The notes under the pieces: model-generated | The model's database searches: none | What the model saw: only the letters and a program-made list of their open reading frames with translations | Told to the model about the DNA's origin: nothing | Assembly (NCBI RefSeq): GCF_018977255.1 | Contig: NW_024704742.1 | Coordinates: 11,658,001-11,722,000 of the forward strand | Length of the DNA stretch: 64,000 nt | Origin: Callorhinchus milii | Taxonomy: Eukaryota | Direction of reading: 5' to 3' | Program-made: the position numbers and the translations under genes | In this document: one piece after another, positions 3,236 through 53,724 of the stretch | Numbering within the stretch: the stretch's first letter is position 1 | Layout of the letters: each line of letters starts with the position of its first letter

Positions 3236-4486
3236 TAATAATAATAATCCTTGCATTTGATATAGCGCTTTTCACGTCTTCTAGGCATCTCAAAGTGCTT
3301 CAGAGAATATACTTTAAAGTGAATTGACTGTATATTTTGTGGGCGAAACGTGGTAACCAATTGCGCACAGCAATGTCCCACAAACCGTCGTGGATTGAGT
3401 GACCAATTTATTATTTTTTTGCCCAAGGTTTCACCCTGCCGGGCCTATAATGATTGAGAAATCATTTTCCTGCATGAAGGTGGCTATTCAGACGTTCCTT
3501 TTGTTAAACAAAAGCAAAAGCTTTTGTATTAAAGGTATAACCTTAATTGACAAGTTATCATAAATTATAAACTTGAAGTCATCAGCTCCTTCCTGAGGAT
3601 GTGCTTTGCGCATCAGTGACAATTTCGTTTTCTCAAACGTGAAAAACTGAAAAGTAAAGATTAGTACCTGTATAATAGCAAATATATCTGCATAACACAA
3701 ATATTTAAACTTGTTTTTGTGCAATATACAGCAAATAATTTAGTTACTTTACTTATACCCACACTTAATTAGAAATGCAAAACGTTTCCGGTAACTTTAC
3801 ATGCCTGACTTCAAGCTGTATTTCAACAAAAACACTCATGTTAGTAATTATTACTCACGGTCGGTCAAATTCCATACTGGCTATATTTCATCAAGAAATA
3901 TTACAGATAGGACATCATAAAAAATAATGCAAAAGTGTGTGGTTAGCTTGCTTTTGGGGAGACATATGATGAATACATACCCTCGAAAAATAAGCTGCAA
4001 TTCACTTTGACCACGCTTTATATGTAAACTTTCTGAAAATAAAATTACAATCCAAGTGTTGGTAGAAGTGGAGAACAAAACTAAAAGTTAGAAATGTAGA
4101 ACAAAAACAAAGGGCTATTTGCAAGACATGATAAAGTATGAAAACACTACTGTTCAAAAGGGTAGTTTCTGTATATTGCACAAAAACAAGTTTAAATATT
4201 TGTGTTATGCAGATATATTTGCTATTATACAGGTACTAATCTTTACTTTTCGGTTTTTCACGTTTGAGAAAATGAAATTGTCACTGGTGCACAAAGCACA
4301 TCCTCAGGAAGGAGCTGATGACTTCAAGTTTATAATTTATGATAACTTGTCAATTAAGGTTATGCCTAGCTTTACGTTTACCAATTATCCTCATCGTCTT
4401 GTGATATGCATTTTTTTTTCTTGAGGGATTATTATCAGGTGTGTGGAGCAAGGAAACTTGCCCAAGGTTTCACCCTGCCGGGCCTA
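3236..4486 (-). mobile_element. Short-form SINE (3236-3420 and 4412-4486) interrupted by a ~1-kb insert containing a foldback
   Basis: The SINE halves join at the T-rich linker; GTAA lies at both outer ends (3235-3238 and 4490-4493). Confidence 0.75.
3533..4367. repeat. Inverted repeat: 199-bp arms (3533-3731 and 4169-4367), 437-bp spacer
   Basis: The arms are reverse complements with about 5 mismatches, all transitions. The ORF track shows the mirrored peptide HKNKFKYLCYADIF on both strands. Confidence 0.95.
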
Positions 4487-7476
4487 AAAGTAAATCTTTA
4501 GGCTGAATTTTGAAAGCAGAGAGAAGGAAGGGGGGAGGCAAAGAGATTTCAGGAGGGAATTTCAGAGGGAGCGGTCAAAGTGCCTTGGAGGCTCCCCTGA
4601 CGATGGTGAGGCGGAACAAGCAATAACAACAACTTGCATTTATCTAGCGCCCTTCAAGCAGGGTAGTGTACCAGAGCGCTTTCTGCCTGGAGGCAGGGGG
4701 TCATGAAGTGGCAATCTAAATCATGACTGAGCAATCCAAATCACGATTCTCTCCCCCAAGAAATTCAGATTGGAATCATCCAGGTATTCAGAAGCCATTT
4801 AGAAAATGAAACCTTTTTGCAGTAATAGCTGCCGAGGGCTTAAATCTTCTTTTGCTCAAAATGGCACTCATTTCAAGTCTTCTTTACTGGTGTCTTGAGG
4901 CTTTTCATTTCAAGAGCATTACACAACAGTACCTGCTCCCTCTTCTGCTCGCTGACCTCCTGAGCTTCACACTGCAGTGGTAGATCTTGGGTGCACTATT
5001 TGCAAGTTGGATAAGGATGATATCCAATATTTTTAGAATTTTATAGAATATAACAAACTAGCCTTTGTAGGTTAACCACACTGATGTGTGGTTAAACTTG
5101 TGTTTAGTAGTTCAAGGGCAACCTCTGTGTTGACCTTGCCTTTTTTTGTGGTTCCAACACATTCTCTCCACACATCCTGTGTTCTATGTTGAGACAGAGT
5201 CTGGAAAACAGAGGCTACATTTCTTTTTATCTTCTGGACTTCAGCAAAATAATCGACTTTCTGTTGAGGCAAATCAGCAAATACAGGGACTGGAAATCAG
5301 TAAGTGAAAGGTGGCACCTTCACCAGTGTGTCCCATGAAGAGGCAGTGTTTGTGTTTAGTACATTATTCGAATATTAAGAGGAGCAAATTAACCCTGAAA
5401 GAAGATAAAGCTTTCAATGCCTCTCGGAGACCGAAGGCTGAACAAGAAAAAGAATCAGTGGGTGATGTGGGACTTGACTCTTTTGCTTCCACCTCAGGAA
5501 GCTCGTCAATTAGCAGTTCACGGCCTCCAGCGATACAATGGTTTAGGTCAGTCTATTCTACCTGCGTTGTGGGCAATTGATTGATCGATGCACTGATCCC
5601 ACAACCACCAAGGGATGCAAACCCCCATTAGGGCTTCCTCCTGCAATTGGAGTTTAAATTTATCCCAGAAAACTGTGCTTTCATAATTTCCTGGCACTTG
5701 ATGCCTGATGTTTGCAGACGTTCTCTGTCTGGACCTAAAGATATCAGATGAAGCAGTCGATTCTTTTGATGCTAAAACCTTTGGTAAATGCATCATTTGC
5801 TAAATGCGTTGCTTACACAATGTATTTTGTAGGGGTTATTCTTTTTTGTGTGCTTCAGGGAGCAAAGACTTTAATGTGGTAAACAGCTGTTCTGCTCCTT
5901 TCATTACATTTTGTGAGTTTGTCCCTGTTTACTTAGAAGTGACTTAATGTGCTGAATGAAGCAGAATAGTGATTAGTGCACATCAATGCATTTGCTACAC
6001 AGAACATGTGATACCGAACAATCCCAATGTATTCCTAAGGTGGTTGTGGAGACCTACCAGTTAACTCACTGAAGGTGAAACGTTCCACCTGGGGTTTAGA
6101 TTTACTCTAATTTTCATAGAATTCTAGAATATTACAACACAGAAGGAGGCCATTTGGCCCATCGTGCCAGTGATGGGCTCTTTGAAAGAGCCCATACCCA
6201 ATCAGTCCCACTCCCCCACTCTTTCTCCATGCCCCTGCAAACCTTTCCTTTTCAAGAACCTATCTAATTCTCTTTTGAAAGTTGTTAATGAATCTGTTAC
6301 TATTTTCTTAGCATTTCAGAGCATCCAGATTTTGGCAAGCTTTTAAATGGTCCTAATCTTGAAGCTGGTATTCTGTGTGTTCTTTTAAGAACTCCAGAAA
6401 AAACGGCTTCAAAGTTGAGCTGGAATCTGTCAATTTACTAAATTCTGCATATTTTTAAATGGCAAGTAAATTAATTCATTCTAGACCCCTTGAAATTCCT
6501 TCTTTAGAGCCAGAGTTTGAAACCACTCTAAAGGATTTATCTTGCCACTATCTAAGTGGCAGCTTCATAGAGTAATTTACAAACTTTTACAAAAACTTTT
6601 TCATCTTGGTCTCACAACTGAAGTGAACAAGCATTTTGCAATAGCATTACTTATAAATGGACTGACTGTTAAGTTGCAGAGCTATACACCTGTTCTCTGA
6701 ACTATATTGTTTATATCCATGTAGAGATTGAGTAAATGAACAATTGTGCCCCGAATATTTGCTATTGCAATGTGCTCCCTTTTTGTTAAAATATAATTAG
6801 ACTCCCACATGTGAAGCTCCTTCCAATCCATTCTTTCCAAAATCCCATCTACTTAATACTTTTACTCAAATCTTCAGCTTGTTGTTGCATCAACTTTCTC
6901 AGTTGACTTCTCCTTCAAAAGGATTGAGATATACTTCCAGCACAAGGTCATTTTTACAATGGTTACATTGGAGATTCCAATGTGGCACCTTTACAGTAAC
7001 AAACATTTGAAGAGATAATTCAAAACAATACAAATCTACATTGATAAAGCGCCTTTCACATCGGGAGGACATCTCAAATCACTGGCTGAGCACCCGAGCT
7101 GGAGGTGGGAGCCAAGGGGAGGGAGGTGAGGGCACTGAAACTGTGGTCATAGAGAGAGGTCTTGAGATGGACATTAAAAGAAGGGAGGAACTAGTTGGAA
7201 GGAGTCAGACCTCAATTTATTCTCATTTTCTTGGCATTTCAGATGATTCAGAATTTAACTTCTGTCACCAGAAGCGTTACATGTTTCTGGCCATGTAGGA
7301 CCACTTAAAATTTAAGACAATGTAGATTTTTTTTTGAAAATCAATAAACTAAATTTGGAAACTGTTTTTTATTTCAATAACAACAACAACAACAACAACA
7401 AGATTCCATTTATAAAGCGGCTTTCACGTCAGGAGGACGTCCCAAGGCGCTGCACAGTTGGGTCATGACCCGAGCA

Positions 7477-7608
7477 GGGGGGAAATGGTCAGGGTGAGGG
7501 AAGGGAGGGAGCGAGGAGGGGGGAAATGGTCAGGGTGAGGGAAGGGAGGGAGCAAGGAGGGGGAAATGGTCAGGGTGAGGGGAGGGAAGGGAGGGAGCGA
7601 GGAGGGGG
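7477..7608. repeat. Three tandem copies of a 40-41 bp unit at the ORF end / 3' UTR of L2 copy A
   Basis: aaatggtcagggtgaggg recurs at 7483, 7524 and 7564; single-copy in L2 copies B and C. Confidence 0.9.
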
Positions 7609-10600
7609 AAGAGAGTCGAGAGGGGAGCTGAAGGCACGGTCAAAGAGAAAGGTTTTGAGACCGGCCTTGAAGGAGGAAAGGGAGGAAGCAAGGCGAAGGC
7701 ACTGGGGGATGGAGTTCCAGAGCTTGGGGGCTGAGAGGCTGAAGGCCCGACCACCGATGGTAGGGAGGTTGGGGCGGGGGACGTGGAGCAGACCAGAGCC
7801 AGAGGAACGGAGGGTACGGGCAGGTAGGTAGGGGGATAGTAGGTTGGAGAGGTAGGAGGGAGCAAGGCCGTGAATGGCCTTGTAGGTGAGGATGAGGATC
7901 TTGAAATCAATCCTCTGGGGGATGGGGAGCCAGTGGAGGCGAGCGAGGGTGGGAGTGATGTGGTCCCGAAGCCTGGTGCGGGACAGTACACGAGCTGCAG
8001 AGTTCTGAATGACCTGCAGCTTGTGGAGGGAGGTGGCGGGAAGGCCGGCGAGGAGAGAGTTCCCATAGTCCAGCCTTGAGGTGACAAAGGCGTGGACCAG
8101 GGTTTCAGCAGCGTGAGGGGTGAGGTAGTGCCGTAGTCTGGCGATGTTCCGGAGGTGATGGAAGGCGGTGCCAGTTGTGGTGCGGATGTGAGGGAGAAAG
8201 GACAGCTCAGGGTCGAACAAAACGCCGAGGTTCCTGACTGGCTTTGAGAGGTGGAGAGTGCAGCCTTGGATGCTGATGGTGTCAGCGCCTGAGGTGCGGA
8301 GGCGCTGACGTGAGCCAATCAGGAGGGCCTCGGTTTTTCGCACGTTGAGCTGAAGAAAGTTGTCTCTCGTCCAGGACTCGATGTCGGACAGGCAGCTGTC
8401 AGGACATCGGTGGTCGTGGAGTTGAGAGTAGAGGAGGAAAGGTAGAGTTGGGTGTCATCCGCATACATGTGGAAGTTAACTCCATGTCTGCGGATGATGT
8501 CACCGAGGGGGAGCATATAGAGGGTGAAGAGGAGGGGACCGAGGACAGAGCCCTGAGGGACACCACATGAGACAGTACGGGGGGTGGAGGAGAAGCCATT
8601 CGTTGAGACAAAGTGAAGACGGTGAGAAAGGTACGACCTAAACCATTCAAGGACAGTGCCTTGAAGGTTGAGGTGGGAGGACAAGCGGTGGAGTAGGATA
8701 GCGTGGTCGACCGTATCGAATGCTGCCGATAGGTCGAGGAGGACGAGGAGACAGAGGGAGCCCTGGTCACAGATGGTCAGGATATCATTGGTGACCTTGA
8801 CCAGGGCAGTTTCTGTGCTATGAGCAGCACGGAAACCTGACTGAAGGGGTTCAAAAAGAGAATGGGTGGAAAGGAAAGAGCGCAGTTGGGAGGCGACAAC
8901 TCTTTCCAAGACCTTGGAGAGAAAGGGGAGGTTGGAGATGGGCCGGTAGCTTGATAGCTGCGACGCATCAAGGGAGGGTTTTTTCAGGGTGGGCGTGATG
9001 ATGGCAGTTTTTAATGGAATGGGGACAGAGCCAGAGGAGAGGGACAGGTTGATGATGTCAGTGATATGTGGGGCAAGAAAGTGGAGCTGGGAGATAAGGA
9101 GTGGAGTGGGGATGGGGTCAAGGGAGCAGGTGGTTGGTTTTAGGGATAGGATGAGTTCAGTGACAGAGGGTGGGGAAACGGGTACGAAGGTGTGTAGGGG
9201 AGGATGGGTAGGAGTCGGAGTGTGGGAGGGAAGGGGTGGGTGGTGGGTGGAAGTTGGAGGGGAAGTGACCGCGGAGCGGATTCCCTTGATCTTGGATTCA
9301 AGGAAATCCAGCATCTCCTCGCAGTGAAGGTTGGAGGAGATGACCTGCGCGGGGTGGCGGGGGGGACGGAGGAGTCGGGTTGTGGTGGAAAACAGTAGCC
9401 TGGGGTTGTTCTTCGCCTCCAGGATTATCCTGGAGTAGAAGGACGACTTGGCCGAGGCTAGAGTGGAGCGGTAAATTTTGAGGAGGTCCAGCCAGATTTG
9501 TCGGTGGACCGTTAGGCCAGATTTGACACAGGTGCGTTCAGCAGCCCGCACCTGGCTTTTCAGTGAGCGGAGGTGGGTGGTGTACCAGGGGGAGGAGCGG
9601 GAGTAGGAGACAGTGCGGGAAGTGATGGGGGCAAGAGTATCGAGTGTGGAGGAGAGGGTATTGTGGAGGAGGGAGAGAGGAGAAGAGGGGTCGGTGAGGG
9701 TTGAAGGCCAGAGGGAGAGGAGTTCAGAGGACTCCAAGGCATCGGTTAGGGATTGTGGGGGTAACTTCTTCCAAGGGCGGTAGAAGATGGTGGTGGGTCT
9801 GGTGGAGGTGGGGAGGGGGGTGGAGGTGGTGAAGGAGATGAAGTGGTGGTCAGAGATGGCCTTGTCGGTAATAGTGACATCCGAGACACTGAGGCCCCGG
9901 GTGATCACCAAATCGAGTGGGTGGCCGTGACTGTGAGTGGGGGAGTTTATGTGTAGGGAGAGGTTGAGTGAGGAGAGCAGGGAAGAGAAGTCTGTGGAGA
10001 TGGAGCAGGAGGGGGTGAAGTGTAGGTTAAAGTCGCCCAGGATGATGAGGCGATCGGAGGAGAGGCAAAGAGATGTGAGGAGTGTTGAAATGTCAGAGAT
10101 GAAGGTGGGAGAGGTTTTAGGGGGCCGGTAGAGGAGGAGGATTTTAAGGGAGAGGAATGAGGGGTGGGAGAGGGTGAGGTGCTCAAAGGAGGGGAAAGAG
10201 CCAGTGGAGTAGGGGGATAGGGCAAGTGGTGTCCTTGAGATAAGGGCAACACCACCGCCACGGCGGTTGGGGCGGGGGATGTGGTGGGAGGTGTAGCCGG
10301 GTGGCGTGGCCTCCGTGAGGGGGAAGGTGTCGCCTGGGGTGAGCCACGTTTCTGTCAAGGCCATGATATCAACGTTCTCATCAAGGATGAGATCGTTGAT
10401 GACCAGGGCCTTGTTGCAGAGGGAGCGGACATTTTGCAGTCCGATGTGGAGGGAGCGGTTGACAGAAGGGTGTGTGGGAGGGGAGGGGGTCCAGGTTGTG
10501 AGGCAGGGGTGGGGGGATGGGGATGAGGGAGGAGAGGTTGACTCCCCGGGTCTGTGTCCGGGGTGGCTGGCGAGAGTGGTGGGGAATGGGGCAGTCGGTG

Positions 10601-10826
10601 TGGCTGCTGCTGGACAGCCAACGCCGAGTGCCACGGTGAGCCCGGCGGAGGATTCCCAGGCTGGAGCAGAGGGAGGTTGTGGGAGGGTCAAGTGGGGATA
10701 GAAGACGAGAGGGACGGAGAGAGAGGAGGAGAGAGCGGGAGAGATGCAGAGGGGGGAGGGTTTGGGGGGAGAGAGGAGGGGGAGGGAGGGAGGGGGTGAG
10801 GGGGCTCGGGTCAAAGCGGCAGCCAT
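7570..10826 (-). pseudogene. L2 ORF2 (endonuclease-reverse transcriptase) split by one frameshift near 8390-8400
   Basis: ORF 8319-10835 (EN and RT to YADD) and a second frame open 8454-7570 (SCLSDIESW...C-terminal domain). No premature stops within either segment. Confidence 0.9.
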
Positions 10827-10829
10827 AGT

Positions 10830-11132
10830 GCGCACGCGGGGACCGGGAGCGAGCGGTCAGGTGGATGGCATTATCCCGCAGATTGGGGCAGCGAACCCAA
10901 CAGGACCATAGTGGGCTCTGATGTGAGCCCTGGGGGGGGGGGCGCGGAGGGTTTTTTTTTTTTTTTTTTTTTGCGCGCGCACTCACCTGAAAACTAATCT
11001 ATGACGTCGCAGTTCCCCCGCTCCGTCCCCTCCCCTCCCCCCCCCCGGGGCTGCACTCGCTCCGGCGTCGAGTTTAAGTACCTGGGTCAGTAGGCCCAGG
11101 CTCCTCCCCGCGCTCTCCTGCCGCCGCTCCCC
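10830..11132 (-). promoter_or_regulatory. CpG-rich L2 5' UTR / putative internal promoter, antisense to ADGRL3
   Basis: High CpG content and a CRE-like TGACGTCG at 11002-11009 (perfect TGACGTCA at 53577-53584 in copy C). Confidence 0.5.
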
Positions 11133-12474
11133 GACCCACTGGTTTCCCAATTAAACGTTTTCAAAAAATTACATTGAACTTCAATTTGAAGGCCATGGTT
11201 TTAAGACTAGGTCAATTCAGGCCTCAAGTGTTACCCAGTGTTTTTATTTGATTTGTATTGGAAGCTGAGTTGTATTCAGTGAATGAGGACGATCGATAAT
11301 AAATCATCATGATTACGTAATGCTTCTGACTCACTGGAGAGCCAATGCGGCCCTTCAGGTACCCATTCAGCTGACTCTTAACCTCTGTTGCATAGGGTGT
11401 ATGTAACTCACTCGCCTCTAACCTAGGTTCAATTCCCGGAGACGGCGAAACGTTGGGCAAGTTTCCTTAATCCACACGCCTCTGTTTGCCTAGCAGTAAG
11501 TAGGCTGTTAGTTGATTGGCAGATCGCTTTTCTGAGGGTAATAATCCCTTCAAAAAAAAGAGTGCTGTTTCCATTCCACAATTCTAAGTGAATGATTTAT
11601 TTTTTGTGAGAATGCATGCAATTTATTTTCTCCTCCCATAGATTTTAAGAATGCATCTCTGAATAAGAGTGATTCTAACGTAAAATGTTCTGACTGACCT
11701 GTGAGCCTACAAAAATTATGCAGCTTGCATTTCTAACACTAAATTTAAATAAAATAACACATTTAATAACACATTTAAGTGATGCGCAGATAAAACCTTT
11801 ATTGCTGGTAATTTAATACATTCTATCAATAGAGCAGAGAGATGACATGAACCAGAGTGTGGGAGTGTGGAGGTGGAAAAAGACACAGTTAGTTTGACAT
11901 TTACTACTAAAACCAGTTAGATATTAAAATTAATTGAACTGAAAAGCAAAAAATATTAATTTTGCCTTGTGGAAATGTGAATTTTACTGCAGACAAGATA
12001 TGAAAATAATTTTTTGGGGGAAAACAATGATGTCACTGCAGGCTTTTGAACTTGCAAATTGGAAAAGTCATTATAAATTCACAGTAATTCAATAATGCTC
12101 TGTTAGAATGCTCTGTGCATCTTAATGCAGTTGCTAATATTTCATTCGTGAACAAACCACTGCCTACCGTATTTATATTTAACAAATAATATTCGATCCA
12201 TTGGTAAGTTCACTATCTTGAGCCATACAATAATAGTAATAACCACCCTTACGTTTGATACTGTGTTTCACATTGGGAGGACATCTCAAAGCGCTTCACA
12301 GGATTTACTGTAAAGTGGAGTGACTGGGTACTTTATGGGCGAACACGGCAACCAATTTGCGTACAGCAATGTCCCACAAACAGACATGATATGAAAAAAC
12401 AATTTAATTTGAGGGATTGATGGCCAAATACAGACCTGGAAAGGCTCCTGATTTAATTCCTTGCATGGCTGTAA

Positions 12475-15411
12475 TTGTTCTCCTTAAAGCAGAGAAGGTT
12501 GAGAGGAGATTTAATAGAGGTATTCAAAATGATGAGGGGTATCGATGGAGTACAAGAGTACATACAACAACAACAAGATTCCATTTATAGAGCGCTTTCA
12601 CGCCTGGAGGACGTCCCAAGGTGCTGTACAGTTGGGTCAGGACCCGAGCAAGGGGGAAATGGTCAGGGTGAGGGGAGGAAAGGGAGGGAGTGAGGAGGTG
12701 GTAGAGAATCGAGAGGGGAGCTGAAGGCTCGGTCAAAGAGAAAGGTCTTGAGACCGGCCTTGAAGGAGGAAAGGGAGGAGGCGGCGAAGGCACTGGGGGA
12801 TAGAGTTCCAGAGCCTGGGGGCTGAGAGGCTGAAGGCCCGGCCACCGGTGGTAGGGCGGTTGGGGCGGGGGATGTGGAGCAGACCGGAGCCAGAGGAACG
12901 GAGGGTACGGGCAGGTAGGTAGGGGGATAGTAGGTCGGAGAGGTAGGAGGGAGCAAGGGCGTGAATGAGGATGAGGATCTTGAAATTGATCCTCTGGGGG
13001 ATGGGGAGCCAGTGGTGGCGAGCGAGGGTGGGAGTGATGTGTTCCCGAAGCCTGGTGAGGGACAGTACACGAGCTGCAGAGTTCTGAATGACCTGCAGCT
13101 TGTGGAGGGAGGTGGCGGGAAGGCCGGCGAGGAGAGAGTTCCCATAGTCCAGCCTTGAGGTGATAAAGGTGTGGACCAGGGTTTCAGCAGCGTGAGGGGT
13201 GAGGTAGTGACGTAGTCTGGCGATATTCCGGAGGTGATGGAAGGCGGTGCCAGTTGTGGTGCGGATGTGAGGGAGAAAGGACAGCTCAGGGTCGAACAGA
13301 ACACCGAGGTTCCTGACTGGCTTTGAGAGGTGGAGAGTGCAGTCTTGGATGCTGATGCTGTCAGCGCCTGAGGTGCGGAGGCGCTGACGTGAGCCAATCA
13401 GGAGGGCCTCAGTTTTACGCACGTTGAGCTGAAGAAAGTTGTCTCTCGTCCAGGACTCGATGTGGACAGGCAGCTGTCAGGACATCGGTGGTCGTGGAGT
13501 TGAGGGTAGAGGAGGAAAGGTAGAGTTGGGTGTCATCCGCATACATATGGAAGTTAACCCCATGTCTGCGGATGATGTCACCAAGGGGGAGCATGTAGAG
13601 GGTGAAGAGGAGAGGACCGAGGACAGAGCCCTGAGGGACACTGCACGAGACAGTGCGGGGGCTGGAGGAAAAGCCGTTTGTGGAAACAAAGTGAAGACGG
13701 TGGGAGAGGTACGACCTAAACCACTCAAGGACAGGGCCTTGAAGGTTTAGGTTGGAAGTCAAGCGGTGGAGGAGGATAGCATGGTCGACCGTGTCGAATG
13801 CTGCCGATAGGTCGAGGAGGACGAGGAGGCAGAGGGAGCCCTGGTCACAGATGGTCAGGATGTCATTGGTGACCTTGACCAGGGCAGTTTCTGTGCTAAG
13901 GGCAGCACGGAAACCCGACTGAAGGGGTTCGAATAATAAATGGTTGGAGAGGAAAGAGCGCAGCTGGGAGGCGACAACTCGTTCCAGGACCTTGGACAGG
14001 AAGGGGAAGTTGGAGATGGGCCGGTAGCTTGATAGCTGCGACGCATCAAGAGAGGGCTTTTTCAAGGTGGGAGTGATGGTGGCAGTTTTTAAGGGAATGG
14101 GAACAGAGCCAGAGGAGAGGGACAGGTTGACGATGTCTGTGATATGTGGGGCAAGGAGGTGGAGCTGGGAGATAAGCAGTGGAGTTGCGATGGGGTCAAG
14201 GGAGGAGATGGTGGGTTTCAGGGATAGGATGAGTTTGGTGACAGAGGGTGGGGAATCGGGTACGAAAGTGTGTAGCGGAGGATGGGTAGGAGTCGGAGTG
14301 TGGGAGGGAGGGGGTGGGAGGTGGGTGGATGTTGGAGGGGAAGTGACCGCGGAGCGAATTCCCTTGATTTTGGATTCAAGGAAATCCAGCATCTCCTCAC
14401 AGTGAAGGTTGGAGGAGATGACCTGCGCGGGGTGGCGGGGGGGATGGAGGAGTCGGGATGTGGCAGAAAATAGTAGCCTGGGGTTGTTCTTCGCCTCCAG
14501 GATTATCCTGGAGAAGAAGGACGATTTGGCCAAGGCTAGAGTGGAGCGGTAGATTTTGAGGAGGTCCAGCCAGATTTGTCGGTGGACCGTTAGGCCAGAT
14601 TTGATGCAGGTGCGTTCAGCGGCCCGCACCTGGCTCTTCAGTGAGCGGAGGTGGGTGGTGAACCAGGGGGAGGAGCGAGTGTAGGAGACAGTATGGGAGG
14701 TGATGGGGGCAAGAGTATCGAGTGTGGAGGAGAGGTGTTGTGGAGGAGGGTGAGAGGAGGAGAGGAGTCAGTGAGGGTTGAAGGCCAGAGGGAGAGGAGT
14801 TCAGAGGACTCCAAGGCAGCGGTTAGGGATTGTGGGGGTAACTTCTTCCATGGGCGGTAGAAGATGGTGGTGGGTCTGGTGGAGGTGGGGAGGGGGCTGG
14901 AGATGGTGAAGGAGATGAAGTGGTGGTCGGAGACGGCCTTGTCGGTGATAGTGACATCCGAGACACTGAGGCCCTGGGTGATCACCAAGTCTAGTGGGTG
15001 GCCGTGACTGTGAGTGGGGGAGTTGATGTGGAGGGAGAGGTTGAGCGACGAGAGCAGGGAAGAGAAATCTGAGGAGATGGAGCAGGCGGGGGTGAAGTGC
15101 AGGTTGAAGTTGCCCAGGATGATGAGGCGATCAAAGCAGAGGCAGAGAGATGTAAGAAGTGTCGAAATATCGGAGATGAAGGTGGGAGAGGTTTTAGGGG
15201 GTCGGTATTGGAATGCATTGCCTGAAAGCATGGTGTAAGCAGATTTGATAGGGAATTGGATAAGTAATTGAATAAGAAAAAATTGCAGGGCTATCGGCTA
15301 AGAGCAAGGGAGTAGGGCTAGTTGGATCGCTCTTTCAAAGAGCCAGCACAGGCAGGATGAGCCAAATGGCTTCCTTCTTTGCTGTAAGATTCAATGATTC
15401 TATGATTCTAA
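12475..15411 (+). mobile_element. CR1 LINE 3' fragment (12475-12560 and 15207-15411) interrupted by L2 copy B
   Basis: FSLKQRRLRGDLIEVFKMMRG on the left; WNALPE, CR1 3' UTR and (ATTCTATG)-like tail on the right. Confidence 0.85.
12565..15206 (-). mobile_element. 5'-truncated L2 LINE, copy B, nested in a CR1 3' fragment
   Basis: Closely similar to copy A from the (CAA)n tail to the YRPP motif of the endonuclease; several frameshifts. Confidence 0.95.
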
Positions 15412-16769: not shown

Positions 16770-17472
16770 TTCAGCTGGAATAATTTAGGTGTTAAGTTCG
16801 ATCCTCCATATCCCACATCCAGTCCCTGGCCAGGACCACTTTCCACCACTTCCATCACATTGCCCGCCTCCATCCGTACCTCATTCCAAAAGCACCAAAA
16901 CCCTCATCCATGCCTTCGTCACCTCCTGCCTCGACTACTCAAACACCCTCCTCACTGGTCTCCCCTGCTCCACAATTCACAAAATTCAACTAATTCAAAA
17001 CTCCACTGCCTGCACTATACTCTGTACCTCCATTACCCCAGTCCTTGTCAAACTTCATTGGCTCCTGTCATAGATCAGATCAATTTCAAGTTCCTCACTC
17101 TTGTATTTAAATTCCTTCAAGCCCTGCCCCTCACCCCCCTCCAACCTGCTCTCTCCCTACACCACTACCCGCTCCTCCGCTTGACTGGCTCTGGCCAGTC
17201 TTGTCCCCCGAACCCTCCACCCCACCATCGGCATCCATGCTTTCAGATACTATGTCCCGAAGCTGTGGAACTCTCTTTCTCAATCCCTCAGCTTTGCCCC
17301 CTCTCTCCCCATTTTCTGGTCATACTTAAAGTCCTTCCTCTTCGACCACGCCTATGGTTACATTCCCCCTCCCCTTGGCTCGGCATCGGGCTCCACCACC
17401 GTTAAGCACTGTGGGATCCCGCCTGGCGTGAAGGCCGATGTATAAATGCAAGTTGTTGTTGTTCTTGTTCTT
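16770..17472 (+). mobile_element. Degraded L2 3' fragment; further remnants near 23440-23830 and 33800-34060
   Basis: [12 protein letters not shown] and LHWL motifs; tail tataaatgcaagttgttg. Confidence 0.8.
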
Positions 17473-29290: not shown

Positions 29291-30014
29291 GCGTAAACAT
29301 ATTATGATTTCATATATTCTTCTGCATTTTTGCTGTGGCACAAAGGGACTATTAACAGTGTTAATGAGTAGTGTTCCTCCATAGAGATAATCTACGACTG
29401 TTTGTAGGACACTGCTGTGTGCAATTGGCTGCCACGTTTCGCCCACAAAATATACAGTCAATTCACATTACAGTATATTCTGTGAAGCGCTTTGGGACAT
29501 CTCAAAGATGTGATAAGGCGCTATATCAAATGCAAGGATTATTATAACATGCCAATTGATGACTGAGAATCTGGGACTGGAGAATGGTTGAAAGACTTGT
29601 TTGTTGAATTTTCGCACACACCCTCTCCAATTCCCCTCATTCCTTCTCTCCATGAGTTGCACTGAGCTTTGCTTAAGTCAACTTGGCCATGTAACCCAGC
29701 CATATCACCATCCGTCATGTCGAGACTGCCCATGAACTCCGTTCTTGTCTGTTCAGCTTGATGATAGAGTTCACATGACATCATTTAAAAGAGAAGGGAG
29801 TTGCTCTCAGTGTCGTGGCCAACAACCCTCCAGGTTAAATTAGTCATTCAGTTCATGGCCCTTTGTGGGAAATTGCTGAACACAAATTAGCTGTCACTTT
29901 TGTCTCCAAATACAGTCACAACACTTTATAGCAATTCCAATGAGAAGTGCTCTGAGACATTCCTATGTTATAGGTGCTATATCAAAAATAAGGTTTATAA
30001 TTATCAGTGTCCAA

Positions 30015-40009: not shown

Positions 40010-41295
40010 TCTCCAAATCTACCCGCTCCCCCTGGTATAAAAGTCACCTCCGCTCCCTCCAAACACAAACTCGGACCCTAAAGTGCAGATGGCACAAATC
40101 TGGCCTCACAATCCACCGCCAGCTGTGGCTCGAGCATCTCCGCCTCTCCCAACTATCGCCTCTCCCTCTCGCAGGCCCTTCCAATCTCATAAATTACTGT
40201 CCCATTTCCAACCTGCCCTTCCTTGTCAAAGCTCTGGAACGCGTTGTCGCTAACCAGCTTTGCTCTCACCTCTCCCTCCACTCCCTCGTTGAGCCCCTCC
40301 AGTCTGGTTTCTGCCTTGCCCACAGTCGTTATCAAGGTCACAAACAACATTCTCTCTCTCTCTGACCATGGCTCCCTCTGCTTCCTCATCCTTGTGGACC
40401 TCCCTGCCGCATTCAACACAATTGACCACGCCATCCTCCTCCATCACCTCACCTCCCTTATCCACCTTAGTGGGACTGCACTAGCCTGGTTGGTGTCCTA
40501 CCTAACAAACCACCTTCAGTTTATCCCTTCAAACTGTATCTCCTCCTGCCCCTGCCCGGTCATCTGTGGTGTACCCCTTGGGCTCCATCCTTGGCCCCCT
40601 CCTCTTCCTCTATATGCTCCCCCTTAGTGATGTCATCCGCAGACGCGAGGTATACTTCCACTTGTATGCAGATGACATACAAATCTACTTCTCTTCCATC
40701 TGGGACTCCAGGTCTGCTGATGTTCTCTTGGCTTTTCTGGCAGACATCAGGGCCTGGATGAGCGAAAACTTCCTATGACTAAATGTTGACAAGACAGAAG
40801 CCATACTCATTGGCTCCCATCGACATCTTCTATCCTGCGGCTCTGACCTCCTCAACCTCCCTGGCCTATCCCTCAGACTTACCGAAATGGTGCGAAACCT
40901 TGGCATCAGGTTCAAACCACAGCTGTTTTTCCTTCCCCACATCTGGTCCCTGACCAGAACCGCCTTCCTCCACCTCCATCACATTGCCCTCCTCCAACCG
41001 TACCCCAGGTGCAGCCGAAACACTCAACCATGCGTTCATCACCTCAACTATTCAAATGCCTTCTTTGCCAGACCCTCCAACCCTACCATCTACAAAATCG
41101 AGTTGATCCAAAACTCCACCGCCCGCATACTCACCCATACCAAACACCGTACCCCCATCACACCAGTCCTAGCCAGGCTCCACTGGCTCCCTATCACCAA
41201 ACGGTTCGATTTCAAGATCCTCATCCTTTTCAAATCCCTTCATGCCCTGGCACCTCCCTACTTCTCTGACCTGCTTACCCCCCCCAATCCCATTA
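40010..41295 (+). mobile_element. Older, degraded L2 RT fragment
   Basis: [19 protein letters not shown] and LHWLPI motifs across several frames. Confidence 0.88.
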
Positions 41296-41753
41296 GGATC
41301 TGGTTTATACCAAGTCCAGGTTTGTTATAAAAGTTGTTCCCAATACCACTTCTTACCCTGTGCCAACAGGCATGTTACTATTGTGCTTTCCCATTAAATG
41401 TTCTTAGTCAGACTCTAATTCTAAAGTCCTGCTTGAAATCCCATCTTGTGTCATAGAACATCTTGAACCTGAACACAACAGATGCTATGGAGAAGAGGTG
41501 TGTTCTCGCTCTCTCTCTGACATATTTTATCGTCCACGTTGCTGGGCCAAATCACTACAGAATTCATTGATTACTGAAGCACTTAAAACGACTGTTTGCA
41601 CCATCGCCATCCAAGTTTTATTTAGCGTATCTGGTGTGTCACTTGAGATGCTGTGATCTCCGCCTCTCTTTCTCTCGCTCTCTCTCCCGTCCCCAACACA
41701 ATGCAAACGCTGCTGTTGTTGCCGCTCACGCCATTCTGTGTCGTATTTTTCAG

Positions 41754-48808: not shown

Positions 48809-50063
48809 TTGCCAATTATCTTAAAGGTCTTGTGAAACTTATTTCAAAGTTCAGTATAAAGTCACGAGGCTTTTCTTTGGAACATTTCTTTGGAACTCTT
48901 CCACAAGTTATAGTTATTTTTGAAGATATACTTTACACTGTCCAACCCTTCATTATGTCGCATTAGCATTTTATTGTTTATTAAACCATTTAGTTTATAG
49001 TTACCTTAGTTAAACCCTTGTCTGCAATGACCTCACCCATTTGTCATCATGACTGTCCACAGAAAAACAGTTGAAAAGAATTCCATCAGAATTCACTCCA
49101 TCATTCTTCAGCCATTCATTTACATAATTAATCCTTATTCAGAAAGAATAAGGTTTACTATGAATGAGAAGACATTCTTCGTTCAGAGTCTTTCCATAAA
49201 TTTGGAATACTTTTATTTCATTGGGCAATGGCTCATGGCTGGGCCACTGTTTTGTGATGTCAACTTCTCAACATTCATAAATCTCACTTCAGACAAACCC
49301 TTCAATGTTCGTGGATTCAATCAATATTGATTTTGGATGTGTATGTGTGTCTATGTGTGCATATTGTATTTGGTGATTTCTATCCTATGGGTGTTAAGCA
49401 ACTTTTAAAACTTGATTTTTTTGTTTGAAGTAAATAATATGATCCATGATCCATGCTTCCCACTCATATCATTACATCCATTCTGAAGCCTTTCATACTT
49501 ATCACGTTTCCCAACTTTATTAACTACCTACATTTTTAATTTCATCTCCAAAAAGGAAAAGTTTTTATTAGTGTTACATCAGGGTGACAAAAGTACTCCG
49601 AGACTCCGTCTGGCATGAAGGGCACAATATAAGTGCAAGTTTTGTTGTTCGCACAAATAACAGGTAGAACAATAACAACAACTTGCACTTATGTAATGCC
49701 CTTCATGCAGGGTAGCATCTCAGAGTGCAGTGATAGAGTGTCTCTCTGTCCGGAAGTAAAATATTATTCACTGTCGACATGTGCCTAAACATCTGAGTAG
49801 TTGAATAGGGTGAACACTAGGCATAGTTTGAATCGTACCTGGTGACATTAGACCTCAGCCACTTTATGTTGATGAAATGAGCACCGGGTCTAAATAATAT
49901 CCAGGGAGGGAGGATGTAAGCAAAGTGAAATTTCTCTGGGGCTAAATTGGTGTTGAGGAATCAAGTTTGCAGTAAATCCAAAGCATTGTCAACTATTGAC
50001 CAGACCGTCTGATTCTTCAGTGAAACTGGGAGATGCAGACCTTGCAAGCTGGGAATGGTACAA

Positions 50064-53000
50064 CAACAACAACAACAAGATTCCATTTATTTGAGCGCTG
50101 TTCACGTCGGGAGGACGTCCCAAGGCGCTGTACAGTTGGGTCAGGACCCGAGCAGGGGGGAAATGATCAGGGTGAGGGGAGGGAAGGGAGAGAGCGAGGA
50201 GGGGGTAGAGAGTTGAGAGGGGAGCTGAAGGGACGGTCAAAGAGAAAGGTCTTGAGACCGGCCTTGAAGGAGGAAAGGGAGGAGGCGGCGAAGGCACTGG
50301 GGGATGGAGTTCCAGAGCCTCGGGGCTGAGAGGCTGAAGGCCCGGCCACCGATGGTAGGGCGGGTGGGGCGGGGGATGTGGAGCAGACCGGAACTAGAGG
50401 AATGGGGGGTACGGGCAGGTAGGTAGGGGGATAGTAGGTCGGAGAGGTAGGAGGGAGCAAGGCCGTGAATGGCCTTGTAGGTGAGGATGAGGATCTTGAA
50501 TTTGATCCTCTGGGGGATGGGGAGCCAGTGGAGGCGAGCGAGGGTGGGAGTGATGTGGTCCCGAAGCCTGGTGCGGGACAGTAAACGAGCTGCAGAGTTC
50601 TGAATGACCTGCAGCTTGTGGAGGGAGGTGGCGGGAAGGCCGGCGAGGAGAGAGTTCCCATATCCAGCCTTGAGGTGATAAAGGCGTGGAACAGGGTTTC
50701 AGCAGCGTGAGGGGTGAGGTAGTGCCGTAGTCTGGCGATGTTCCGGAGGTGATGGAAGGCGGTGCCAGTTGTGGCGCGGATATGAGGGAGAAAGGACAGC
50801 TCAGGGTCGAACAGAACCCGAGGTTCCTGACTGGCTTTGAGAGGTGGAGAGTGCAGCCTTGGATGCTGATGTTGTCAGCGCCTGAGGTGCGGAGGCGCTG
50901 ACGTGAGCCAATCAGGAGGGCCTCAGTTTTACGTACGTTGAGCTGGAGAAAGTTATCTCTCATCCAGGACTCGATGTCGGACAGGCAGCTGTCAGGACAT
51001 CGGTGGTCGTGGAGTTGAGGGTAGAGGAGGAAAGGTAGAGTTGGGTGTCATCCGCATACATGTGGAAGTTAACCCCATGTCTGCGGATGATGTCACCAAG
51101 GGGGAGCATGTAGAGGGTGAAGAGGAGGGGACCGAGGAAAGAGCCCTGAGGGACACCGCACAAGACAGTGCGGGGGCCGGAGGAAAAAACATTCGTGGAG
51201 ACAAAGTGAAAACGGTGGGAGAGGTACGACCTAAACCACTCAAGGACAGAGCCTTGAAGGTTTAGGTGGGAGGACAAGCGGTGGAGGAGGATAGCATGGT
51301 CGACCGTGTCGAATGCTGCCGATAGGTCGAGGAGGATGAGGAGGCAGAGGGAGCCCTCGTCACAGATGGTCAGGATGTCATTGGTGACCTTGACCAGGGC
51401 AGTTTCTGTGCTATGGGCAGCACGGAAACCCGACTGAAGGGGTTCGAATAATGAATGGTGGGAGAGGAAAGAGCGCAGCTTGGAGGCGACAACTCGTTCC
51501 AGGACCTTGGACAGGAAGGGGAGGTTGGAGATGGGCCGGTAGCTTGATAGCTGCGACGCATCAAGGGATGGGTTTTTTCAAGGTGGGAGTGATGATGGCA
51601 GTTTTTAAGGGAATGGGAACGGAGCCAGAGGAGAGGGACAGGTTGACGATGTCTGTGATATGTGGGGCAAGGAGGTGGAGCTGGGAGATAAGGAGTGGAG
51701 TGGGGATGGGGTCAAGGGAGCTGGTGTTGGGTTTCAGGGATAGGATGAGTTTGGTGACAGAGGGTGGGGAAATGGGTACGAAAGTGTGCAGGGGAGGATG
51801 GGTAGGAGTCGGAGTGTGGGAGGGAAGGGGTGGGCGGTGGGTGGATGTTGGAGGGGAAGTGACCACGGAGCAAATTCCCTTGATTTTGGATTCAAGGTAA
51901 TCCAGCATCTCCTCGCAGTGAAGGTTGGAGGAGATGACCTGCGCGGGGTGGCGGGGGGTAACGGAGGGGTTGGGATGTGGTAGAGAACAGTAGCCTGGGG
52001 TTGTCCTTCGCCTCCAGGATTATTTGGCCGAGGCTAGAGTGGAGCAGTAGATTTTGAGGAGGTCCAGCCAGATTTGTCGGTGGACCGTTAGGCCAGATTT
52101 GACCCAGGTGCGTTCAGCGGCCCGCACCTGGCTCTTCAGTGAGCGGAGGTAGGTGGTGAACCAACGGGAGGAGCGATAGTAGGAGACAGTACGGGAGGTG
52201 ATTGGGGCAAGAGTGTCAAGTGTGGAGGAGAGGGTGTTGTGGAGGAGGGTGAGAGCAGCAGAAGAGGGGTCAGTGAGGTTGAGGGCCAGCGGGAGAGGAG
52301 TTCAGAGGACTCCAAGGCAGCGGTTAGGGACTGAGGGGATAACTTCTTCCAGGGGCGGTAGAAGATGGTGGTGGGTCTGGTGGAGGTGGGGAGGGGGGTG
52401 GAGGTGGTGAAGGAGATGAAGTGGTGGTCGGAGACGGCCTTGTCGGTGATAGTGACATCCGAGACACTGAGGCCCCGGGTGATCACCAAGTCGAGTGGGT
52501 GGCCGTGACTGTGAGTGGGGGAGTTGATGTGGAGGGAGAGGTTGAGCGAGGAGAGCAGGGAAGAGAAATCTGAGGAGATGGAGCAGGAGGGGGTGAAGTG
52601 CAGGTTGAAGTTGCCCAGGATGATGAGGCGATCAGAGCAGAGGCAGAGAGATGTGAAAAGTGTTGAGACATCAGAGATAAAGGTGGGAGAGGTTTTAGGG
52701 GGCCGGTAGAGGAGGAGGATTTTAAGTGAGAGGAAGGAGGGGTGGGAGAGGGTGAGGTGCTCAAAAGAGGGGAAAGAGCCAGAGGACTAGGGGGATAGGG
52801 CAAGTGGTGTCCTTGAGATAAGGGCAACACCACCGCCACGGCGGTTGGGGAGAGGATGTGGTGGGAGGTGTAGCCGGGTGGCGTGGCCTCCGTGAGGGGG
52901 AAGGTGTCGCCTGGGGTGAGCCAGGTTTCCGTTAAGGCCATGATATAAACGTCCTCATCAAGGATGAGATCGTTGATGACCGGGGCCTTGTTACAGAGGG

Positions 53001-53724
53001 TGCCGGACGTTTTGTAGTCCGATGTGGATGGAGCGGTTGACAGAAGGGTGTGTGGGAGGGGAGGTGGGTCCAGGTTGTGAGGCAGGGGTGGGGGGGATGG
53101 GGATAAGGGAAGAGAGGTTGGCTCCCCGGGTTTGTGTCCGGGGTGGCTGGCGAGTGTGGTGGGGAATGGGGCAGTCGGTGTGGCTGTTGCTGGACAGCCA
53201 ACGCCGAGTGCCACGGTGAGCCCGGTGGAGGATTCCCAGGTTGGAACAGTGGGAAGTTGTAGGAGGGTCAAGTGGGGATAGAAGGCGAGAGGGGCGGAGA
53301 GAGAGGAGTACAGAGGAGGTGAGATGCAGAGGGGGGAGGGTTTGGGGGTAGAGAGGAGGGAGGGAGTGGGTGAGGGGGCTCGGGTCATAGCGGCAGCCAT
53401 AGTGCGCACGCGGGGACCGGGAGCGAGCGGTCAGGTGGATGGAAACATTATCCCATAGGCTGGGGCTGCCAACCCAACAGGACCATGGTGGGCCCTGTTG
53501 TGAGCCTGGGGGGGGGGGGCGCAGAGGATTTTTTTTTGTTGTTGTTGCGCGCGCACACCTCTGAAAACTACAACTATGACGTCAGCGGTTCCCCCACTCC
53601 GCTCCCACCGGTTCCCTCCTCAGCCCCACACCCCGCACACTGGCTGCACTCCCTGCAGCGTTGAGTTTAAGTACCTGAGAGGTAGGCCCAGGCTCCTCCC
53701 CGCGCTGTCCTGGCGCCGCTCCCT
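50064..53724 (-). mobile_element. Full-length L2 LINE, copy C, with a 6-bp target-site duplication GTACAA
   Basis: Colinear with copy A including the 5' UTR; multiple frameshifts. GTACAA at 50058-50063 and 53725-53730. Confidence 0.95.

What the first reader, a model, noticed from the sequence alone, without database searches (positions are those of the whole stretch)
8319..8454. Three independent L2 insertions share one frameshift just after YADD, at an RNA hairpin
Seen in the sequence: copies A (8379-8409), B (13458-13487) and C (50972-51002) all read GTC CTG ACA GCT GCC TGT (DVLTAAC). The conserved continuation [14 protein letters not shown] lies in the -1 frame. YADD-to-W spans 95 nt in copy A, against 93 nt read in frame in the older L2 at ~40665-40757 (internal control). 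The break maps to a hairpin on the element RNA: CGAUGUC-CU-GACAG-[CUGC]-CUGUC-C-GACAUCG (copy B has lost one further stem base). Copy A has no other lesion from the endonuclease to the C-terminus, and the two frames overlap over 8319-8454. The copies differ at many other sites and have separate insertion points, so the shift was in their source element. Established: L2 proteins (UnaL2, ZfL2-2) recognise the 3' stem-loop and mobilise other RNAs in trans. Inference: either a full-length but non-autonomous L2 lineage amplified by a helper, or a programmed recoding site giving RT with and without its C-terminal domain. No canonical X XXY YYZ slippery site is visible, which favours the first.
Basis: partly seen in the sequence, partly recalled or inferred. 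Interest (0 to 1): 0.75.

Follow-up and report, generated by a model that had tools for sequence, protein, structure and literature searches.

The report
Shared one-base frameshift in L2 retrotransposons
About half of some 3,000 young copies of an L2-type jumping gene in this genome lack one base just after the reverse-transcriptase active site, and they most likely spread by borrowing the enzyme of intact sister copies rather than by a programmed reading trick.

Summary
Copies A, B and C are separate minus-strand insertions of one L2-like LINE. All lack one C in the apical loop of a strong RNA hairpin, 15 codons after YADD, and the conserved [14 protein letters not shown] continuation lies in the -1 frame.

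Genome-wide, the shifted 33-mer occurs 1485 times and an in-frame 34-mer with one extra C occurs 1410 times. The in-frame form matches teleost homologues and an older L2 in the window.

The two states do not form separate lineages. They coexist in the old subfamily (about two thirds shifted) and in the wA-like young subfamily (452 shifted, 445 in frame). The youngest subfamily is mostly in frame (58 versus 471).

Differences fixed between subfamilies are mostly synonymous both before and after the break (omega about 0.1), so the propagating line always encoded the full protein. A second frame-breaking lesion (a TT deletion) rides along in the same way.

There is no X XXY YYZ site. Best reading (0.6): defective copies mobilised in trans by in-frame siblings that share the same 3' tail, with mosaic haplotypes. 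Low-level compensatory frameshifting is not excluded (about 0.1). Moderately interesting.

The parts
7379..11131 (-). Copy A (wA): full-length L2-like LINE, about 3.75 kb, young subfamily Y1. Its only frame-breaking lesion is the one-base deletion.
   Evidence: Self-BLAST limits. 820 open codons upstream and 274 downstream of the break.
8319..10856 (-). Frame 1 of copy A (845 aa, stop to stop). Endonuclease at aa 142-337 (about 9846-10433) and RT at aa 625-809 (about 8430-8984). Ends 45 aa after YADD.
   Evidence: PF03372 E=2.5e-15; PF00078 E=8.7e-31.
7570..8454 (-). Frame 2 (-1) of copy A, 294 aa. Holds the conserved [17 protein letters not shown] region and the C-terminal ..FKAGLKTFLFDRAF.
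   Evidence: Alignment to 7 homologues with C506, W513, N517, L519, L521, N522 and K525-E527 invariant.
8394..8395 (-). Site of the missing base. The shifted form reads ACAGCTGCC and in-frame copies read ACAGCCTGCC, one extra C on the element strand (G on the + strand, placed behind 8394).
   Evidence: table 4.
8364..8428 (-). Extended RNA hairpin of about 65 nt. The indel lies in its apical loop (CCUGC in frame, CUGC shifted). Present in both states.
   Evidence: -30.2 kcal/mol, z -4.25 (shifted form); -30.1 kcal/mol, z -6.13 (in-frame copy L045); 0 of 200 shuffles as stable in each.
7379..7457 (-). 3' tail: stem-loop (AGCGCC..GACGTC..GACGT..GGCGCT) followed by (TTG)n. Identical in shifted and in-frame copies.
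   Evidence: 13 copies shown; n varies; flanks differ. Tail matches.
12564..15207 (-). Copy B: 5'-truncated, old subfamily O. Shifted, with one further stem base lost and lacking the TT at element position 3448.
50060..53723 (-). Copy C: full length, old subfamily O. Shifted and lacking the TT at element position 3448, with further stops.
40548..41327 (+). Older, decayed L2-like copy that reads [28 protein letters not shown] in one frame. Serves as an internal control.
   Evidence: tblastn with a natural in-frame copy: one HSP, 50% identity over 268 aa.

Best explanation
The element is a young, very abundant L2-type LINE with one ORF (endonuclease plus reverse transcriptase) and a 3' stem-loop plus (TTG)n tail.

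The ancestral, functional form reads ..[32 protein letters not shown].. in one frame. A deletion of one C in the apical loop of a coding-region hairpin splits the ORF. The zero-frame product then stops 45 aa after YADD and lacks the conserved downstream RT and C-terminal region.

Copies with this lesion cannot make the full enzyme by ordinary translation. They nevertheless make up about half of the family. The most likely reason is that their RNA carries the same 3' tail that the enzyme of the in-frame siblings recognises, so they are reverse-transcribed in trans, as a SINE or a defective-interfering genome would be.

Shown: the lesion, its frequency, the in-frame siblings, the selection pattern, and the mixing of states among subfamilies.

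Inferred: trans-mobilisation, and exchange between lineages by template switching or conversion as the reason that both states carry the same subfamily-diagnostic changes.
For: - Counts in the 991-Mb genome. There are 3519 matches to the junction with any 0-10 nt loop. Of these, 1485 are the exact shifted 33-mer and 1410 the exact in-frame 34-mer.
- The in-frame reading is the conserved one. A database protein 98% identical overall (A1; 99% over the aligned 56% of the query region), 5 teleost proteins and a coral protein all span the site in one frame. Invariant C, W, N, L, L, N and KTE follow it directly. So does an older L2 in the window.
- Differences fixed between the old (O) and youngest (Y2) subfamilies. 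Upstream: 42 synonymous to 14 non-synonymous (omega 0.12, binomial p=6e-14). Downstream, in the in-frame reading: 11 to 3 (omega 0.10, p=8.5e-5).
- The state is heritable and depends on the subfamily. Y1 marker: 452 shifted versus 445 in frame. Y2 marker: 58 versus 471 (chi-square p=1.6e-50). The rest, mostly O: 975 versus 494 by subtraction.
- A second frame-breaking lesion behaves alike. The TT deletion at element position 3448 occurs in 14 of 14 shifted and 4 of 6 in-frame O copies, in 29 of 64 young copies, and in 0 of 16 Y2 copies. Defective genomes therefore amplify in this family whether or not the junction is recoded.
- Shifted and in-frame copies share the same 3' stem-loop and (TTG)n tail.
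- Stringent-type L2 ORF2 proteins recognise the cognate 3' stem-loop (PMC4176376, abstract and passages read). L2-2_CM is reported to mobilise SINEs through a shared tail in the species whose label the best hit bears (PMC5499810, abstract and passages read).
- There are 0 strict X XXY YYZ heptamers in the zero frame within the overlap. The 4 half-matches all lie downstream of CLSDIESW.
Against: - Strong purifying selection on the line of descent (omega about 0.1) sits uneasily with free trans-mobilisation. If defective RNAs were copied as readily as functional ones, coding capacity should decay. Some cis advantage of intact copies has to be assumed.
- Both states share the same subfamily-diagnostic substitutions at every stage. 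The junction needs 10 changes on a 45-copy tree, where the median for the other 104 sites is 4. This requires repeated exchange or repeated mutation, and neither is shown directly.
- Within Y1, 63-82% of site pairs show all four gametes with little dependence on distance. That pattern could also arise from recurrent CpG changes or from cross-talk among near-identical repeats during assembly polishing.
- Variants shared only by shifted copies are 8 synonymous to 8 non-synonymous. Those shared only by in-frame copies are 8 to 2. The difference is not significant (p=0.22), so relaxed constraint on shifted sources is not demonstrated.
- No data on transcription or translation were obtained.
Confidence: 0.6

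Rival explanations
1. Recurrent mutational hot spot. Functional in-frame masters produce shifted progeny again and again because one C in the apical loop of the 65-nt hairpin is lost at very high frequency. The loss would happen during reverse transcription or later in the genome. Shifted copies would then be dead on arrival and never act as sources.
For: - The state flips at many tips of the tree: 10 Fitch changes on 45 copies.
- Near-identical pairs differ only in state: L050 versus L066 and L053 versus L063.
- The indel sits in the loop of a very stable hairpin.
- The shifted share rises with subfamily age: 11%, 50%, about 66%.
Against: - The local sequence is identical in Y1 and Y2 over at least 85 nt each side, yet the shifted share is 50% versus 11% (p=1.6e-50).
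- Shifted copies are not older than in-frame ones. Private differences have a median of 0.07% versus 0.14% in Y1 (p=0.32) and 1.02% versus 1.85% in O (p=0.16).
- Copies with the Y2 marker and the shift are not ordinary Y2 copies. Only 2 of 9 carry the standard Y2 haplotype downstream, against 16 of 16 in-frame ones (p=7e-5).
- The site is only a CC dinucleotide, not a long run.
- Ordinary SNPs and the non-repetitive TT deletion are just as reticulate. This points to a general process rather than a site-specific one.
Confidence: 0.15
2. Compensatory or programmed -1 ribosomal frameshifting. The hairpin makes a fraction of ribosomes slip so that shifted elements still produce some full-length enzyme and are autonomous or semi-autonomous. 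Very little enzyme per RNA might suffice.
For: - The required shift is -1, and a hairpin far more stable than shuffles lies at the site.
- Some shifted copies carry no other lesion: copy A, and 9 of 40 Y1 shifted copies (wA, 9 unbiased loci and the 30 loci chosen for identity to copy A) have the intact C-terminal haplotype.
- Shifted copies persisted through all subfamilies while the line of descent kept omega about 0.1 on both sides of the break. This is easier to understand if shifted copies are not dead.
- Low-level frameshifting that compensates an indel is a known class (PMC5009743, abstract and introduction passages read).
Against: - There are 0 strict slippery heptamers in the 136-nt overlap.
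- The break lies in the loop, inside the structure rather than 5-9 nt upstream of it.
- No substitution is specific to shifted copies within 311 nt: at least 40 copies are identical to copy A, and in-frame copies differ there only by the extra C.
- In-frame copies are equally abundant and dominate the youngest subfamily.
- The TT deletion, which needs a different shift, spread as well.
Confidence: 0.1
3. Artefact. The missing base, or the mixing of states among near-identical copies, is produced by sequencing, consensus or polishing errors at the hairpin.
For: - Other recurrent 1-nt indels among young copies lie in C5-C7 runs, which are typical error sites.
- Four-gamete pairs are frequent even below 100 nt.
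- Only contigs, not raw reads, could be laid.
Against: - Contigs of two runs of the same organism from different studies hold both states, and the shifted state is the major one by contig depth.
- Old copies with 1-2% private differences, which reads would place uniquely, also carry both states: 13 shifted and 6 in frame.
- The subfamily make-up differs between the shifted and in-frame samples (p=1e-4). A random error would not do this.
Confidence: 0.05

Closest known systems
L2-clade 'stringent-type' LINEs of fishes (UnaL2 of eel, ZfL2-1 and ZfL2-2 of zebrafish; L2-x_CM families listed for the elephant shark)
   Same: - One ORF with an APE-type endonuclease and an RT.
- A 3' stem-loop followed by a short tandem repeat.
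- A C-terminus ending ..FK.RLKT.LF..AF, as in the teleost homologues.
- An enzyme that recognises the cognate 3' stem-loop and can serve tail-sharing RNAs (PMC4176376, PMC1636434 abstract in the search listing, PMC5499810).
   Different: About half of the copies carry one and the same frameshift inside the RT region. Clade placement was not tested by a tree, and identity with a named Repbase family could not be checked here.
Non-autonomous derivatives that use a LINE's enzyme in trans (SINEs with a LINE tail; ORF2-less HAL1 elements of mammals, recalled)
   Same: They keep the recognition tail, lack a working enzyme, and reach copy numbers equal to or above the helper.
   Different: Here the parasite is a full-length copy that differs from its helper by a single base, and in older copies by a second small deletion. 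It keeps sharing the helper's new substitutions instead of diverging as its own lineage.
Indels compensated by low-level ribosomal frameshifting (for example the herpesvirus thymidine kinase G-run case reviewed in PMC5009743)
   Same: A one-base indel splits an essential ORF, and little product might be enough.
   Different: There is no homopolymer or slippery heptamer at the site, and no evidence of read-through here.

Membership tests
L2-clade LINE (stringent type) | Single ORF with an N-terminal APE-type endonuclease and a central reverse transcriptase | tested here: met
   PF03372 at aa 142-337 and PF00078 at aa 625-809 of the 845-aa frame. A natural in-frame copy, L045, has a 779-aa 5'-open ORF.
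L2-clade LINE (stringent type) | 3' end made of a stem-loop followed by a short tandem repeat, with no poly(A) | tested here: met
   ..AGCGCCTTGGGACGTCCTCCTGACGTGAAAGGCGCT..GGAATC(TTG)n in the 13 copies shown, with n variable. The stem was read by eye and not folded separately.
L2-clade LINE (stringent type) | RT groups with L2 elements in a phylogeny of LINE clades | not tested
   Only similarity is available: 4669 proteins at E<=1e-20, mostly fish 'reverse transcriptase domain-containing' proteins. No reference set of LINE clades was on hand. The L2 label rests on the tail type and on the recalled C-terminal motif.
Programmed -1 ribosomal frameshift site | Slippery heptamer X XXY YYZ in the zero frame | tested here: not met
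   0 strict heptamers in 8319-8454. The 4 half-matches all lie downstream of the conserved CLSDIESW.
Programmed -1 ribosomal frameshift site | Stable stem-loop or pseudoknot 5-9 nt downstream of the slip site | tested here: inconclusive
   A very stable hairpin exists. However, the frame change maps inside its loop, and no slip site lies before its base.
Programmed -1 ribosomal frameshift site | Trans-frame protein actually made | not testable with these tools
   Needs a reporter assay, ribosome profiling or proteomics.
Non-autonomous element mobilised in trans | Lacks a complete enzyme ORF but shares the helper's recognition tail | tested here: met
Non-autonomous element mobilised in trans | A coexisting autonomous helper of matching age | tested here: met
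   1410 in-frame copies. In-frame copies occur in O, Y1 and Y2. Six of 9 Y2 copies that reach the locus edge are open over all 504+274 codons held. Full-length intactness of in-frame copies was not checked, because only 1.5 kb upstream was held.
Non-autonomous element mobilised in trans | Defective copies themselves act as sources (the state is inherited) | tested here: inconclusive
   For: the share depends on the subfamily, and Y2-marker shifted copies have non-random haplotypes. Against: no clean clade made only of shifted copies.

The most novel reading that the evidence does not exclude
The shifted elements are not dead. The 65-nt hairpin provokes a low level of -1 frameshifting without a canonical slippery site, giving just enough full-length enzyme to act in cis. 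Shifted and in-frame forms would then be two interconverting, both-propagating states of one LINE. That would explain why the frame break persisted through every subfamily while both halves of the ORF stayed under strong purifying selection.
Probability: 0.1. Interest if true: 0.8.

Novelty: new member of a known kind. Interest (0 to 1): 0.42.

Why it matters
How strongly L2-type LINEs prefer their own RNA (cis preference) is poorly known outside mammalian L1. Here a single-base marker splits a very young family of about 3,000 copies into copies that can and cannot make the enzyme, on otherwise identical RNAs. That makes a natural competition experiment.

The ratio of the two states among the newest insertions, together with their transcript ratio, would measure cis preference directly. 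The same data would show whether LINE lineages exchange sequence often enough to behave as one gene pool.

For genome annotation, about 1,500 'RT' ORFs that end 45 aa after YADD are one recurrent lesion and not separate decay events.

Tried and rejected
- **Genome file.** I worked with pattern counts and fetched loci instead.
- **More shifted copies.** The unbiased shifted sample is therefore 20 loci plus the 3 window copies. L001-L030 are biased, because they were chosen for 100% identity to copy A, and were left out of the association tests and the tree. In one search they are tabulated as a separate group; they were counted among the shifted copies; they were also used.
- **Segmental duplication or gene conversion of the three window copies.** Rejected: the flanks are unrelated.
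- **Post-insertion decay as the source of the shift.** Not supported by private-difference loads.
- **Old-subfamily counts.** Genome-wide counts with the O marker were not run. The O share comes from subtraction and from the sample of 13 shifted and 6 in-frame copies.
- **RNA evidence.** No RNA holder was listed among the runs. Four runs were laid as contigs only, so they give no strand, level or expression.
- **Other organisms.** Organisms B and C showed only 14 and 4 contigs at depth about 8-12. That is too little to say whether the family lives there.
- **Constraint on state-specific variants.** The comparison is inconclusive: 8:8 versus 8:2, p=0.22.
- **Earlier findings of this scan.** Nothing to show.
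- **Literature.** Searches for a frameshifted L2 subfamily or a frameshift site inside a LINE RT listed no such report among the titles and abstracts shown. This is no proof that none exists.
- **Alignment noise.** The first half (all young copies including L081-L090) was polluted by flank sequence and is not used.
- **Y2-marker loci.** L085, one of the 10 'Y2-marker' shifted loci, is an O-type copy and was dropped from the 2-of-9 count.
Full report
**What is there**

Copy A spans about 7379-11131. It has a stop-to-stop frame at 8319..10856 (845 aa) with endonuclease and RT hits (PF03372 E=2.5e-15; PF00078 E=8.7e-31) that ends 45 aa after YADD. A second frame at 7570..8454 (294 aa) opens with ..[22 protein letters not shown]...

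Copy B (12564-15207) is 5'-truncated and copy C (50060-53723) is full length. They are 93.2% and 91.8% identical to A, and no homology continues outside the element. Other copies of the family end in (TTG)n runs of different length next to unrelated flanks. These are separate insertions of one L2-like LINE.

**The lesion**

A pattern search of the 991-Mb genome that holds the window gave 3519 matches to the two arms with any 0-10 nt between them.
- 1485 are exactly the shifted 33-mer with loop CTGC.
- 1410 are a 34-mer with loop CCTGC.

The longer form reads ..[13 protein letters not shown].. in one frame. The break is therefore the loss of one C (GCCTGCC to GCTGCC), not a gain of two bases. 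YADD-to-W is 95 nt in copy A and 96 nt in the in-frame form. The older L2 at 40548-41327 is one codon shorter and reads through in one frame.

A search with a natural in-frame copy (L045, 779-aa open frame) found 4669 proteins at E<=1e-20. The best named one is 98% identical overall (99% over its best local alignment) and carries the label Callorhinchus milii. It has the in-frame form.

Five teleost proteins and a coral protein (41-51% identical in the alignment A1) also span the site in one frame. Invariant C, W, N, L, L, N and KTE follow directly behind it, and the six proteins that reach the C-terminus end in ..FK.RLKT.L(F/Y)...

The in-frame form is therefore ancestral and functional. The zero-frame product of the shifted form lacks the conserved region downstream of the break.

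**The hairpin**

The structure is real and larger than described. About 65 nt (8364-8428) fold at -30.2 kcal/mol (z -4.25). The inner 51 nt fold at -22.6 kcal/mol (z -4.81). The in-frame version folds equally well (-30.1 kcal/mol, z -6.13). In all three folds 0 of 200 shuffles do as well.

The indel lies in the apical loop. The hairpin is a property of both forms, not of the shifted one.

**Is it an artefact?**

Only contigs of public runs could be laid, not raw reads.

In two runs of the same organism from different studies, both states are present.
- The extra base appears in 20 contigs of run X1 (depth 34875 of 331713).
- It appears in 5 contigs of run X12 (depth 1060 of 29981).
- The shifted state is the major one by contig depth.

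Contig depth is a poor measure of share, and soft-clipped in-frame contigs show as loose ends at 8395. Old copies with 1-2% private differences also carry both states. I take the shifted state as real.

**Family structure**

I aligned 83 copies:
- the 3 window copies;
- 30 shifted loci chosen for identity to A (a biased set);
- the first 30 in-frame loci along contig 1;
- the first 20 shifted loci along contig 1.

The unbiased copies fall into three groups.

| Subfamily | Shifted | In frame |
|---|---|---|
| O, old (includes B and C) | 13 | 6 |
| Y1, young (includes A) | 10 | 8 |
| Y2, youngest | 0 | 16 |

Private differences are about 1-2% in O, 0.1-0.2% in Y1 and 0.02% in Y2.

Genome-wide counts with a marker 85-92 nt upstream of the junction give:
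- Y1: 452 shifted versus 445 in frame;
- Y2: 58 shifted (about 10 of these are O-type) versus 471 in frame;
- the remainder, mostly O, by subtraction: 975 versus 494.

The tree is a ladder from O through intermediates to Y1 and Y2, with both states at nearly every rung. The junction needs 10 changes on 45 tips. The median for the 104 other sites with a minor allele of 8 or more is 4, and only 2 of them need 9 or more.

The shifted copies are therefore not a separate lineage.

**Selection**

Differences fixed between O and Y2 were classified on the codons of a natural in-frame copy.
- Upstream of the break: 42 synonymous to 14 non-synonymous (omega 0.12, p=6e-14).
- Downstream, in the in-frame reading: 11 to 3 (omega 0.10, p=8.5e-5).
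- All 4 changes behind element position 3448 are synonymous in the frame that reads the conserved C-terminal motif.

The line of descent always encoded the whole protein.

**Other lesions**

Among 64 young copies, four further small indels recur in the coding region:
- loss of a C in a C7 run (7 of 44);
- loss of a C in two C5 runs (10 of 64 and 14 of 64);
- a TT deletion at element position 3448 in a non-repetitive context (29 of 64, none in Y2).

Only the haplotype with TT reads ..LWNSIPQCLRLASSLSSFKAGLKTFLFDRAF. Without TT the frame ends early.
- In O, 14 of 14 shifted copies and 4 of 6 in-frame copies lack TT. The two with TT (L039, L047) are both in frame.
- In Y2, all 16 have TT.
- In Y1, all combinations occur.

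A doubly broken form was therefore the commonest product of the old subfamily. This shows that defective genomes amplify in this family whether or not the junction is recoded.

**Hot spot or inheritance?**

A post-insertion hot spot predicts older shifted copies. They are not older. The medians are 0.07% versus 0.14% in Y1 (p=0.32) and 1.02% versus 1.85% in O (p=0.16).

A constant error during copying predicts equal shares in Y1 and Y2, whose local sequence is the same. The shares are 50% and 11% (p=1.6e-50).

Ten loci with the Y2 marker and the shift were fetched. One is O-type. Of the other nine, only 2 carry the standard Y2 haplotype downstream, against 16 of 16 in-frame Y2 copies (p=7e-5).

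The state is therefore tied to haplotypes, which speaks for inheritance from shifted sources plus exchange.

Within Y1, 63-82% of pairs among 49 polymorphic sites show all four gametes. The junction (0.90) is no outlier. Reticulation is general. I cannot separate true template switching or conversion from recurrent CpG change or from cross-talk among near-identical repeats in assembly polishing.

**Recoding**

There is no strict X XXY YYZ heptamer in the zero frame anywhere in the 136-nt overlap. The 4 half-matches all lie behind CLSDIESW, so a shift there would skip the invariant residues.

The frame change maps inside the loop, not 5-9 nt before a structure. No substitution is private to shifted copies within 311 nt: at least 40 copies are identical to A there, and in-frame copies differ only by the C.

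Against dismissing recoding altogether, omega of about 0.1 alongside a majority of broken copies needs some cis advantage of intact copies. Low-level compensation of indels by frameshifting is also a known class (PMC5009743, abstract and introduction passages read). Variants shared only by shifted copies are 8 synonymous to 8 non-synonymous, against 8 to 2 for in-frame-only variants (p=0.22), which decides nothing.

**Comparison with what is known**

The features match stringent-type L2-clade LINEs:
- one ORF with endonuclease and RT;
- a 3' stem-loop plus microsatellite tail;
- the same C-terminal ending as the homologues.

For these LINEs, the ORF2 protein is reported to recognise the cognate 3' stem-loop (PMC4176376, abstract and passages). 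Tail-sharing SINEs are reported to be mobilised (PMC1636434, abstract in the search listing; PMC5499810, abstract and passages, for L2-2_CM). Clade placement by a tree, and identity with a named Repbase family, were not tested.

Searches of the paper library listed no report of a frameshifted L2 subfamily or of a frameshift site inside a LINE RT among the titles and abstracts shown.

**Verdict**

The best explanation (0.6) is that the shifted copies are defective genomes copied in trans by in-frame siblings with the same tail, in a family whose lineages share sequence.

Rivals:
- a recurrent hot spot (0.15);
- compensatory frameshifting (0.1);
- an artefact (0.05).

It is a new member of a known kind, a non-autonomous derivative of a LINE. 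Its unusual trait is that the parasite differs from its helper by one base and keeps pace with it. Interest is moderate.

Noticed in passing
window 11421-11559, also near 19605, 21216, 24416, 25478, 27039, 48532, 56495, 59086 and 61887: A repeat of about 140 nt recurs at least 9 times in the window at 74-88% identity. It is probably a SINE. Its relation to the L2 tail was not examined.
   Followed up: no
window 7383-7457, against 1065-1103, 17419-17484, 35210-35282 and 48734-48788: Short matches to the 3' tail of copy A stand apart from full L2 bodies. They could be older L2 ends or tail-sharing SINEs, which would be direct evidence of trans-mobilisation.
   Followed up: no
window 7471-7610 (element positions about 3530-3670): A 41-45 nt tandem repeat lies at the end of the ORF and the start of the 3' UTR. 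It varies in unit number among copies and shows as block gaps in the alignment.
   Followed up: partly
element position 3448 (window 7691 in copy A); copies B and C lack it: A TT deletion puts the conserved C-terminal FK.GLKTFLF motif out of frame. It is the majority state in the old subfamily and absent from the youngest.
   Followed up: yes
window 16808-17373, 23073-23754, 30003-30263, 33814-35180, 39913-41327, 47633-48077 and 63765-64000: There are several older, decayed L2-like fragments of other families, 35-83% identical at protein level to the young family.
   Followed up: partly
runs X16 and X17 laid on window 8200-8600: Two other organisms hold contigs 99% identical to the in-frame form, but only at depth about 8-12 and in 14 and 4 contigs. 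This could be low copy number, a close relative, or carry-over between samples.
   Followed up: no
proteins P0067, P0071, P0074 and P0114: Some close homologues (55-56% identity) are filed under bacterial names: Plesiomonas, Vibrio parahaemolyticus and E. coli. This is most likely fish DNA in bacterial records.
   Followed up: no
L066 and L012, 3' ends: In L066 the (TTG)n tail abuts an inverted second tail, giving tail-to-tail copies. In L012 the tail is followed by the YADD region of another L2, a nested insertion.
   Followed up: no
contig 1, 8.5-24.5 Mb of the genome: In this stretch, which includes the window, the pattern listing shows roughly twice as many shifted as in-frame copies. Genome-wide they are about equal. 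This local excess was not examined.
   Followed up: no
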